Shown piece by piece: positions 34,501 through 37,500 of a stretch of DNA of 64,000 nucleotides. The DNA is from Escherichia coli. GTDB taxonomy: Bacteria; Pseudomonadota; Gammaproteobacteria; Enterobacterales; Enterobacteriaceae. Numbering within the stretch: the first letter of the stretch is position 1; the number at the start of each line of letters is the position of its first letter. Location of the stretch: NCBI RefSeq assembly GCF_013122565.1, contig NZ_CP053258.1; one strand, 5' to 3'. Made by a program: the position numbers.

Positions 34501-37500
34501 CAGACTGTGGGTAAAACCACGATGCCCAAAAGCGCGGGCGATCGGTTTTGATATCCACTTTAATCGCTGCCCAAGAAACGACTTTGGGTGATCGATGTCC
34601 GGTAACAAACACGTCAGGATTGCGGAAGGGACAATATGCCACCAGTCACCCTGTGCCAGCACGGGCGTCAGCTCGGCATTTTTGGCAAATACCGCACAAG
34701 CAATAGAAAAGAGAAGGTGACCTTCCGCCGTCATGATAAAACTCACTAAACTGTCGATACGTACAGTATAGGGTTTTTATACAGTGCACGGAAGTGGTGA
34801 CGGTGTAACTCTTTCTCTTAAATTGACGATTAATCCGTCAGTTGAATGCAAATTCAGATAAAGAACCAGGAGCAGTGTGATCACTGCCCCTGGTCATTAA
34901 CCGAGAAGGTCTTTTGCGGTGAGTTCTGTCAGCGATGAGAGTTTGACGTTTGCTAATACAAAACGTGGATCATTTTGCGCTTCTGGCGCAGGAACGACGA
35001 TGGAACGCATGCGGGCTGCTTTAGAAGCGATCATGCCATTTACCGAGTCTTCCAGCGCCACGCAGGTCAGTGGGTCAACGCCCAGTTTTGCTGCGCAGTC
35101 GAGATATACTTGCGGATGCGGCTTGCTGTAAGGCAGTTTTTCAGCCGAGGCGAGGGCATCGAAACTGTCGCGTAAGTCAAACATGGTCAACACTTTTTCC
35201 AGCATATGTAGTGGTGACGCGGAGGCCAGTCCCACTAATAAACCTTGTTTTTTGCATAACGCAACGGCTTCACGCACGCCTGGTAATAATGGACGTGTCT
35301 CTTCAACCAGTGAAATGGCACGGGCAATAACCCGTTCTACTACTTCCTGACGGCTTGGCCCATTCCACGGTTGCCGGGCGTACCAAAGATCGACCACCAT
35401 ATCGATGCGTAAACCTAAGGTGTCCGGCAGCTCGTTACGACGGGAGATATCCACCCCCAGGCTTGCCATCACATCCAGTTCGGCTCGATCCCATAAAGGT
35501 TCTGAGTCGATAAGTAATCCATCCATATCAAAAATTGCAGCAAGAATCTGACGCGGGGTTGACATTACAACCTCTCCTTTAGAGCATTATGTGTAAGGTA
35601 TTAAGCCGTGCTTATGATTAAGCGCCTATCATATCGCCTTTAAAGAATGGGCGAAAACAGATATCTACAGGTAAACTAAGTGAAACGACGCGTCTTAATC
35701 AAGGAGAACTCATGACGTATCAACAAGCTGGACGCATTGCTGTTTTGAAAAGGATTATGGGTTGGGTGATTTTTATACCTGCATTGATCTCTACATTGAT
35801 TTCTTTGCTGAAATTTATGAATACCCGGCAGGAAAACCAGGAAGGCATTAATGCGGTCATGCTCGACTTTACTCATGTCATGATCGATATGATGCAGGCG
35901 AATACGCCTTTTTTGAATCTATTCTGGTATAACTCCCCGACGCCCAATTTTAATGGTGGCGTGAACGTTATGTTCTGGGTGATTTTCATCCTGATTTTTG
36001 TCGGACTGGCGTTGCAGGATTCCGGTGCCCGGATGAGTCGCCAGGCGCGCTTCTTGCGGGAAGGTGTTGAAGATCAACTCATTCTGGAAAAAGCCAAAGG
36101 GGAAGAGGGGCTAACGCGTGAACAAATTGAGTCCCGTATTGTTGTTCCGCACCATACTATTTTCCTGCAGTTTTTCTCACTGTATATCCTGCCGGTTATT
36201 TGTATTGCTGCAGGTTATGTGTTCTTTTCTCTGCTTGGGTTTATTTAATCAAAAGGCCGCACGGAGCGGCCATTATCCTCAACCCATATCATGCTGCTAA
36301 TAATCTATCCAGTGACTGCTGAGCAATAACCAAATGCTGACCGCCAAATAATCTTGCACGATTTAACAGCGTGTAGAGTTGGTAAACCGGTTGACGTTCA
36401 AGGAAATCGGCAGGTAGCGGGGATACTGACTGATAGCCGTCATAGATTTGTGGCGGCTGTTCAGTATGCAGCGGTAACATCGCCAGGTCGCACTCTCGGT
36501 CACCCCAGTAGCAGGCCGGGTCGAAAATGTATGGGCCATCCGGACCCAGCGCACAGTTGCCGGACCATAAATCGCCGTGCAACAGAGAAGGCTGCGGTTG
36601 ATGTGAGGCGAGACGCTGCTGAATATGCTCTACGATGGCGTCGATGTTGCCGAAAGCGATCCCTTTTTCTGCTGCCAGTTCCAACTGCCAGCCAATCCGT
36701 TGTTCAGCAAAAAACGTTGACCAGCGACGTTGCCAGGTGTTGGGCTGTGGAGTTGTGGAGAGCGCGTTATCGAAATCGAGGCCAAATTGTGGTTGGTCAC
36801 TCCATTGATGTAAACGCGCAATTTGCTGACCAAGAATAAATGCGCTATGCGCATCCAGCGGACGAGGTGGGAGATAATCCATCACCAGAAAACTGTAGTC
36901 ACGGTCAGCGCCTACTGCCCAAACCTTAGGCACGGTGACGGTTTTACTACGCGACAGTAACTCCAGTTGGTCGGCTTCGGCGGTAAAACCGGGAAGCAGT
37001 TCCCTTTCATCACATTTGACGAAAAAGTCATGTCCTGCATAGCGCAAATGCCATGCGGCATGGACTTCTCCGCCAGGCAGTTCATTACGCAGTTCGATTT
37101 CGCCTTCACCTAACTGCTCGCTCAAAAGACGACTGATTGCCTGCCACATGATGTCTCTCCCATGTTGTCTGCCAGATCATAAGGTTAGCGCAAGAATGCG
37201 GTGTAAAAACACGAGCTAACGCACACCACAGACTGATTATTGCCCAAAAACCATTTATTTTCTGTTGCTATTCCATTCCTCCCAGGTCGTGATGGTGATT
37301 TCAGGATCTTTGCCGGTTGCACTTTGGGTAAGCCCCGAAACCAGTTCTCTAATTTCTTCTTCACTTTGGGTACTGATAAGTCCAAAAGTGTTAGTCCCCA
37401 GCTCATGGATATTTCCCTCATCATCCGTCATGGTGAGCAAAAAACCGTCGCGAGTCAGGTAATTATTCAACTCGTTAATTTCAGTCAATGTATCCTCATG

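What the first reader, a model, noticed from the sequence alone, without database searches (positions are those of the whole stretch)
34751..34785. Perfect LexA box plus adjacent second CTGT motif upstream of ydjM
ctgtcgatacgtacag is an exact CTGT-N8-ACAG SOS box 17 bp upstream of the ydjM start. It is immediately followed by tacagtatagggtttttatacagtg, which carries two more CAGT/ACAG motifs. This looks like a tandem or overlapping LexA operator arrangement, which would give tight SOS repression of a membrane protein of unclear function.
Basis: partly seen in the sequence, partly recalled or inferred. Interest (0 to 1): 0.3.

Follow-up and report, generated by a model that had tools for sequence, protein, structure and literature searches.

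The report
Known tandem LexA operator of ydjM
Two adjacent binding sites for the DNA-damage repressor LexA, one good and one half-degenerate, sit just upstream of the E. coli membrane-protein gene ydjM; the arrangement is real and conserved but was already described in 2000, so it is ordinary.

Summary
The window is E. coli chromosome. The finding lies in the 162-nt spacer between hxpB (yniC) and ydjM, both on the minus strand. The exact CTGT-N8-ACAG is at 34751-34766, with its near edge at -17 from the ydjM ATG (34734). It scores 15.0 bits with a LexA matrix built from 18 published sites that do not include ydjM. That ranks second in the window, after the known cho box.

The other is the good half of a second site, 34767-34786 (gene strand CACTGTATAAAAACCCTATA, 11 bits). 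Its other half is essentially null. The two 20-mers share a terminal TA, giving an 18-bp offset.

Both boxes keep this offset in 78 of 80 Enterobacteriaceae species. No simulated window of 300 produced such a pair.

The literature already lists ydjM as an SOS gene with tandem LexA sites, citing Fernandez de Henestrosa et al. 2000. It reports damage induction in E. coli and two boxes at the same positions in Salmonella. The recN operator has a pair with the same geometry.

Verdict: observation confirmed, interpretation supported, already known, low interest. Two points stay open: the promoter and transcription start are unmapped, and an invariant 25-nt block just upstream of box 2 is unexplained.

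The parts
34749..34768 (-). LexA box 1 (promoter-proximal, stronger). The gene-strand 20-mer is TACTGTACGTATCGACAGTT; the core CTGT-N8-ACAG is 34751-34766.
   Evidence: Exact core. It scores 15.0 bits, rank 2 in the window. A site is present in all 80 species, with CTG[TG] and ACAG kept while the central 8 nt vary. Published HI is 9.0.
34767..34786 (-). LexA box 2 (distal, weak). The gene-strand 20-mer is CACTGTATAAAAACCCTATA. Its left half is consensus and its right half is degenerate. It shares the terminal TA (34767-34768) with box 1, and the centre-to-centre offset is 18 bp.
   Evidence: It scores 11.0 bits, rank 5. The halves score 11.7 and -0.65 bits, against 2.34 for the weakest half among 17 distinct published sites. 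CTGTAT or CTGTAC sits 18 nt upstream of the box 1 core in 77/80 species. The K-12 allele CACTGTATAAAAATCCTATA was predicted at -52 in PMC4576408. In Salmonella the second box has HI 12.85.
34765..34770 (-). TATACT hexamer at the box 2/box 1 junction; the most likely -10 element (inferred).
   Evidence: Invariant in 80/80 species, including the two that lost the CTGT of box 2. It matches TATAAT at 5 of 6 positions. No transcription start data were found.
34776..34781 (-). TATAAA hexamer inside box 2; an alternative -10 element (inferred).
   Evidence: Read from the sequence. It matches at 5 of 6 positions. The best -35 partner is CCGTCA at 16 nt, below the scan threshold.
34789..34813 (-). Conserved block AAGAGTTACACCGTCACCACTTCCG directly upstream of box 2. 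Its function is unknown: it could be the -35 region or a site for another factor.
   Evidence: Near-invariant across 80 species, while sequence further upstream is only 30-80% conserved. GTTACA lies at a fixed 43 nt from the box 1 core in 79/80 species.
34742..34747 (-). AGTGAG, the likely ribosome-binding site of ydjM (inferred).
   Evidence: It lies 7 nt before the ATG and is AGTGGG in most species.
34144..34734 (-). ydjM coding sequence (196 aa plus stop), the regulated gene.
   Evidence: ORF. Pfam PF04307 YdjM, E = 8.8e-36. RefSeq annotates it as ydjM, 'metal-dependent hydrolase' or 'inner membrane protein YdjM'.
34864..34895 (-). Terminator-like hairpin after hxpB, which separates ydjM from the upstream gene.
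   Evidence: 14-pair stem followed by a T-rich tail; inverted repeat I1.

Best explanation
This is the SOS operator of ydjM. Two LexA-binding sites sit head to tail on the 36 bp that end 16 nt before the start codon.

Box 1 (34749-34768) is a complete but middling LexA palindrome. Box 2 (34767-34786) has one consensus half (CTGTAT) and an A-rich centre. Its degenerate half abuts box 1, and the two 20-mers share a terminal TA, giving an 18-bp offset.

Without DNA damage, a LexA dimer occupies box 1. A second dimer occupies box 2, probably helped by the neighbour (cooperativity is inferred, not shown). Together they cover every plausible -10 hexamer (TATACT at the junction, TATAAA inside box 2) and the likely transcription start, so RNA polymerase is kept off.

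After damage, RecA-stimulated LexA self-cleavage frees the promoter and ydjM is induced a few-fold.

Shown here: the sequence, matrix scores, chance levels, conservation and geometry. Taken from papers: LexA binding and damage induction. Inferred: cooperativity, promoter position, and occlusion as the mode of repression.
For: Sequence and position.

Matrix from 18 published sites without ydjM: box 1 scores 15.0 bits at rank 2, box 2 scores 11.0 bits at rank 5, and the known cho box ranks 1 as an internal control.

Simulations: 0.11 and 0.89 sites expected per window at those scores, and 0 of 300 windows contained a tandem pair.

Conservation: all 80 Enterobacteriaceae species keep box 1, and 78 keep box 2 at exactly 18 bp. 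The 81-row upstream alignment shows conservation dropping in the 3-4 nt before box 2 and in the centre of box 1, the pattern expected of LexA sites.

The same geometry occurs in a classic SOS operator: recN boxes 2 and 3 also have an 18-bp offset, a shared TA, and the degenerate half next to the stronger box.

Literature: tandem sites experimentally reported for E. coli ydjM; ydjM in the list of SOS genes; HI 9.0 with 2.5- and 8.6-fold induction; log2 induction up to 2.6; Salmonella ydjM with two boxes at 14 and 32 nt, HI 9.12 and 12.85, 2.11-fold induction; second site predicted at -52.
Against: Box 2 alone is no better than the two probable chance hits in this window (11.4 and 11.2 bits), and its right half is null.

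The whole 85 nt upstream of ydjM is conserved, so conservation of box 2 is not specific to LexA. CCTATA and TATACT survive in the two species that lost the CTGT of box 2, so that part is kept for another reason.

The original binding paper could not be read, so LexA binding to box 2 rests on a secondary citation.

No promoter passed the scan and no transcription start data were found.

The window carries the weaker C allele of box 2 (11.0 against 13.4 bits in K-12).
Confidence: 0.85

Rival explanations
1. ydjM has a single operator. Only box 1 binds LexA in the cell. Box 2 is conserved because it is promoter sequence (spacer and -10, TATAAA/TATACT), and its CTGT half only resembles a LexA half-site.
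For: The right half of box 2 scores -0.65 bits, below every half of 17 distinct published sites. The total of 11 bits equals chance hits elsewhere in the window. The whole upstream block is conserved, not just the boxes. Two species (L015, L024) lost the CTGT but kept everything else.
Against: PMC4951493 states that tandem sites were experimentally reported for ydjM. CTGTA[TC] is kept at exactly 18 bp in 77/80 species, while the 3-4 nt just before it vary. recN boxes 2 and 3 show the same strong-plus-degenerate geometry. A promoter role and an operator role are not mutually exclusive.
Confidence: 0.12
2. ydjM is under dual control. Besides LexA, a second factor (a transcription factor or an alternative sigma factor) acts through the invariant block 34789-34813. 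This adds to the LexA explanation rather than replacing it.
For: The block AAGAGTTACACCGTCACCaCTTCCG is as conserved as the boxes and sits at a fixed distance from them. No acceptable sigma-70 -35/-10 pair was found. The best -35 for TATACT is TTCCGT, a 2 of 6 match.
Against: I found no known motif that fits, and none of the 45 papers mentioning ydjM names another regulator. GTTACA matches TTGACA at 4 of 6 positions and may simply be a -35 with CACTGT/TACTGT as -10, 17 nt downstream. The RpoD SELEX paper places a constitutive promoter in this spacer without any extra factor.
Confidence: 0.25
3. Chance: the motifs are fortuitous and have no regulatory role.
For: The bare CTGT-N8-ACAG pattern is expected 0.68 times per window.
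Against: Matrix rank, the tandem simulation (0 of 300), conservation in 80 species and published induction data all argue against it.
Confidence: 0.01

Closest known systems
ydjM LexA boxes of E. coli K-12 (Fernandez de Henestrosa et al. 2000, as cited in PMC4951493; second site also listed in PMC4576408)
   Same: Same locus. Box 1 is identical and box 2 is at the same place.
   Different: There is one base difference in box 2: window ...AAAAACCC..., K-12 ...AAAAATCC... This lowers the matrix score from 13.4 to 11.0 bits. The window's exact 81-mer is found in 1093 of the 5417 complete E. coli genomes that match it.
recN operator, boxes 2 and 3 (E. coli K-12)
   Same: The offset is 18 bp and the 20-mers share a terminal TA. 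A stronger box sits next to a weaker box whose degenerate half abuts it (17.7 and 13.8 bits). The Salmonella table gives recN boxes at 8, 26 and 48 nt.
   Different: recN has a third, very strong box (25.2 bits) 22 bp further upstream. In recN the weak box is proximal to the gene; in ydjM it is distal.
Colicin operators (ColE1 cea): overlapping strong and weak LexA boxes, with cooperative binding reported
   Same: A strong box and a weak box overlap at their ends just upstream of the gene (22.7 and 15.4 bits). PMC4951493 describes cooperative binding for this class.
   Different: The offset is 15 bp and the 20-mers overlap by 5 nt, against 18 bp and 2 nt in ydjM. Both colicin boxes have two recognisable halves.
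lexA gene autoregulatory tandem operator
   Same: Two LexA boxes lie in tandem just before the start codon.
   Different: The offset is 21 bp with no overlap, and both boxes are strong (20.7 and 18.2 bits).

Membership tests
Gammaproteobacterial LexA operator (SOS box) | 16-bp core CTGT-N8-ACAG within a 20-bp palindrome (TACTGTATATATATACAGTA) that scores in the range of known sites | tested here: met
   Box 1 has the exact core and scores 15.0 bits. The 18 training sites (two of them identical in sequence) score 13.4-28.2 bits, so box 1 is at the low end. Box 2 meets this on one half only: 11.7 and -0.65 bits.
Gammaproteobacterial LexA operator (SOS box) | Placed at the promoter or transcription start of the regulated gene | tested here: inconclusive
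   The boxes span -52 to -15 relative to the ATG and overlap both -10-like hexamers. However, no promoter passed the scan and no transcription start data were found.
Gammaproteobacterial LexA operator (SOS box) | Site conserved in orthologous promoters | tested here: met
   Box 1 is present in 80/80 species. Box 2 is at 18 bp in 78/80 species.
Gammaproteobacterial LexA operator (SOS box) | LexA protein binds the site | not testable with these tools
   Only a secondary citation is available: PMC4951493 says tandem sites were experimentally reported for ydjM. The primary paper is not held.
Gammaproteobacterial LexA operator (SOS box) | Downstream gene induced by DNA damage | not testable with these tools
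   Published data only: 2.5- and 8.6-fold, log2 up to 2.6, and 2.11-fold in Salmonella.
Tandem strong-plus-weak LexA operators (colicin type) | Two boxes that overlap at terminal positions, one strong and one weak | tested here: met
   The 20-mers share 34767-34768 and score 15.0 and 11.0 bits.
Tandem strong-plus-weak LexA operators (colicin type) | Same spacing as the colicin operators (15-bp offset) | tested here: not met
   ColE1 cea has a 15-bp offset. ydjM has 18 bp, the same as recN boxes 2 and 3.
Tandem strong-plus-weak LexA operators (colicin type) | Cooperative binding of two LexA dimers | not testable with these tools
   This needs binding curves on wild-type and single-box mutant DNA.

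The most novel reading that the evidence does not exclude
The invariant 25-nt block (34789-34813, AAGAGTTACACCGTCACCaCTTCCG) sits at a fixed distance upstream of the LexA boxes. It may be the site of a second, so far unnamed regulator or of an unconventional promoter. ydjM would then be under dual control, and LexA would gate a promoter that needs another signal to fire. That could explain why its SOS induction is modest.
Probability: 0.2. Interest if true: 0.35.

Novelty: already known. Interest (0 to 1): 0.1.

Why it matters
It matters little as a discovery. ydjM has been a listed SOS gene with tandem LexA boxes since 2000, and re-finding it mainly shows that the first-stage reader can spot real operators.

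This check adds three small points:
- Box 2 is really a half-site, and it is polymorphic within E. coli.
- The 18-bp shared-TA geometry matches recN boxes 2 and 3, not the colicin or lexA tandems.
- The ydjM promoter is unmapped and carries an unexplained invariant block.

The function of YdjM itself (Pfam PF04307, annotated as a membrane metal-dependent hydrolase) is still unknown.

Tried and rejected
- Bare pattern enrichment: CTGT-N8-ACAG is found once against 0.68 expected, so it is uninformative on its own.
- Sigma-70 consensus scan of 34600-35000: no promoter found.
- Primary papers: Fernandez de Henestrosa et al. 2000 and Wade et al. 2005 are not held.
- Transcription start data: the supplements of PMC3415461 hold only an orthologue table, PMC4288677 is not held, and PMC4161252 has no supplements held.
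- One literature search was badly framed (min_terms 2 without forcing ydjM) and returned nothing useful.
- RNA structure of the 5' region, including the inverted repeat CACCGTCA/TGACGG across the start codon: MFE -27.2 kcal/mol, z = -1.74, and 10 of 200 shuffles folded as well, so there is no support.
- Solved structures related to YdjM: none by sequence.
- A YdjM mention in a bioRxiv paper on enzyme prediction turned out to be a misprint for YjdM.
- Motif ideas for the upstream block (CRP, CpxR, RcsB, marbox, sigma-32) were compared by eye against consensus sequences recalled from memory. None fitted well or was conserved, so all were dropped.
- I did not search distant YdjM homologues (Vibrio, Yersinia and others), because the verdict would not change.

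Full report
**What is there.** The window is E. coli chromosome. The stretch 34100-35000 matches 5423 of 5426 complete E. coli genomes, where it is annotated as ydjM and hxpB. Both genes are on the minus strand: hxpB at 35565..34897 and ydjM at 34734..34144 (ATG start, 196 aa, Pfam PF04307 YdjM, E = 8.8e-36). A terminator-like hairpin (34895-34864) follows hxpB.

Read on the gene strand, the last 54 nt before the ATG are GTG CACTGTATAAAAACCCTA TA CTGTACGTATCGACAG TTTAGTGAGTTTTATC ATG.

**Checking the observation.** But its first ACAGT is simply the right half of the same box. Only ACAG at 34781-34784 (CTGT on the gene strand) is new.

As 20-mers, the sites are:
- Box 1: 34749-34768, TACTGTACGTATCGACAGTT.
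- Box 2: 34767-34786, CACTGTATAAAAACCCTATA.

They share the TA at 34767-34768, and their centres are 18 bp apart.

**Is it more than chance?** The bare pattern is not: 1 was found against 0.68 expected. I therefore built a symmetrised weight matrix from 18 LexA boxes printed in PMC3009722. That list does not include ydjM.
- In the window the top hit is the known cho box (21445-21464, 20.6 bits; cho is in the training set).
- Box 1 is second (15.0 bits).
- Box 2 is fifth (11.0 bits).

In 300 simulated windows with the same dinucleotide make-up, 0.11 sites per window reached the box 1 score and 0.89 reached the box 2 score. None had a strong site with a second site within 12-40 nt. The two remaining hits of about 11 bits (19067-19086 and 57605-57624) are in line with that chance level.

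Splitting the scores by half-site is informative:
- Box 1: 9.2 and 5.8 bits.
- Box 2: 11.7 and -0.65 bits.
- Weakest half among the 17 distinct published sites: 2.34 bits.

So box 2 is one consensus half plus an A-rich centre, and its degenerate half abuts box 1.

**Conservation.** A scan of species-representative genomes returned 80 loci from Escherichia, Citrobacter, Salmonella, Enterobacter, Kosakonia, Raoultella, Leclercia, Atlantibacter and other genera. YdjM identity ranged from 84% to 99%.
- All 80 keep box 1 (14.8-21.3 bits in 79, and 11.5 bits in Atlantibacter sp. RC6, L054). Of the 80, 78 keep box 2 exactly 18 bp upstream.
- The hexamer at that position is CTGTAT in 67 species and CTGTAC in 10.
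- The distance from box 1 to the ATG varies from 15 to 25 nt, so indels are tolerated there but not between the boxes.
- In box 1 the CTG[TG] and ACAG halves are fixed while the central 8 nt vary, which is the signature of a LexA site.
- Conservation also dips in the 3-4 nt just before box 2.

Two caveats apply. First, the whole 85 nt before the ATG is conserved, including a block upstream of box 2. Second, the two species that lost the CTGT of box 2 (L015, L024) still keep CCTATACT. That part is therefore kept for another reason, most simply as a -10 element: TATACT is invariant in 80/80 species.

**What the literature says.**
- ydjM is in the standard list of SOS genes (PMC6590174).
- PMC11228462 gives HI 9.0 for its LexA box and 2.5- and 8.6-fold induction.
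- PMC11002266 shows transcript log2 changes up to 2.6 in its SOS-induction time course.
- PMC8072944 lists Salmonella ydjM with two SOS boxes at 14 and 32 nt from the ATG, HI 9.12 and 12.85, and 2.11-fold induction by nalidixic acid. These are the same positions I measure here. A gfp fusion gave no detectable fluorescence.
- PMC4951493 states that tandem LexA-binding sites were experimentally reported for E. coli ydjM, citing Fernandez de Henestrosa et al. 2000.
- PMC4576408 lists CACTGTATAAAAATCCTATA at -52.
- PMC3444427 had already noted substitutions in the ydjM LexA site among E. coli strains.

The primary paper could not be read. The claim that LexA binds both boxes therefore rests on a secondary citation and on my memory of that paper.

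**How it most likely works.** LexA dimers on box 1 and box 2 cover 34749-34786. That span contains both -10-like hexamers (TATACT 34770..34765 and TATAAA 34781..34776) and the likely start site, so RNA polymerase is excluded until RecA-stimulated LexA cleavage. Because box 2 has only one good half, its occupancy probably depends on the neighbouring dimer. This is an inference.

The promoter itself is unresolved:
- The consensus scan finds none.
- TATACT has only TTCCGT as a -35.
- GTTACA-17-CACTGT (TACTGT in most species) is an alternative.
- The RpoD SELEX paper proposes CTGAAA-17-ATTAAT further upstream. That would make LexA a roadblock in a leader of about 85 nt.
- I found no transcription start data.
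- Folding the putative leader gave nothing notable (z = -1.74).

**Comparison with known tandem operators.** All were scored with the same matrix.

| Operator | Offset | Scores (bits) |
|---|---|---|
| ColE1 cea | 15 bp | 22.7 and 15.4 |
| lexA | 21 bp | 20.7 and 18.2 |
| recN boxes 1-2 | 22 bp | 25.2 and 17.7 |
| recN boxes 2-3 | 18 bp | 17.7 and 13.8 |
| ydjM (window) | 18 bp | 15.0 and 11.0 |

The recN 18-bp pair shares a terminal TA and has the degenerate half of the weaker box next to the stronger box. That is exactly the ydjM geometry. So ydjM works like the strong-plus-weak tandem operators but has the recN spacing rather than the colicin spacing.

**Strain detail.** The window differs from K-12 by one base in box 2 (C for T at 34773 on the gene strand). 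This lowers the score from 13.4 to 11.0 bits. The exact window 81-mer is in 1093 of 5417 genomes, and C is the commonest base in other genera.

**Verdict.** The feature is already known, so interest is low. The only open points are the unmapped promoter and the unexplained invariant block at 34789-34813.

Noticed in passing
window 34789-34813 (minus strand): The block AAGAGTTACACCGTCACCaCTTCCG directly upstream of LexA box 2 is nearly invariant in 80 Enterobacteriaceae species and sits at a fixed distance from the boxes (GTTACA is 43 nt from the box 1 core in 79/80). No known motif or clear -35/-10 pair explains it.
   Followed up: partly
window 21445-21464: The best LexA-matrix hit of the whole window (CACTGGATAGATAACCAGCA, 20.6 bits) lies 13 nt upstream of the 295-aa ORF 20544..21431 (-), which is cho by map position. 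This is the known cho SOS box.
   Followed up: yes
window 34773: Box 2 is polymorphic in E. coli. The window has C (gene strand) where K-12 has T, which lowers the matrix score from 13.4 to 11.0 bits. The window's exact 81-mer is in 1093 of 5417 complete genomes.
   Followed up: partly
window 19067-19086 and 57605-57624: Two more LexA-matrix hits of about 11 bits. One lies between astE and spy. The other lies between divergent ORFs of 277 and 792 aa (ppsR and ppsA by size and position). About 0.9 such hits are expected by chance per window.
   Followed up: no
window 34864-34895: The hxpB terminator hairpin differs from K-12 at three positions. This changes the loop and stem layout but keeps a hairpin.
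   Followed up: no
window 34798-34808 and 34723-34733: An inverted repeat (CACCGTCA / TGACGG) pairs the conserved upstream block with the ydjM start codon region. Folding the putative leader gave z = -1.74, so an RNA structure has no support.
   Followed up: yes
window 45670-45794; 49635-49793; 28684-28726: Rfam matches above gathering score: Phe leader (+), sRNA STnc540 (+) and ES036/CssrF sRNA (-).
   Followed up: no
window 36295-36314: CACTGGATAGATTATTAGCA at the 3' end of yniA shares its first 12 nt with the cho LexA box. It lies inside coding sequence and scores only 7.4 bits, so I take it as chance.
   Followed up: no
L085 2716-2795 (E. coli K-12 recN upstream): recN boxes 2 and 3 have the same 18-bp offset, shared terminal TA and strong-plus-degenerate layout as the ydjM pair. 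This may be a recurrent LexA tandem geometry, distinct from the 15-bp colicin type and the 21-bp lexA type.
   Followed up: partly
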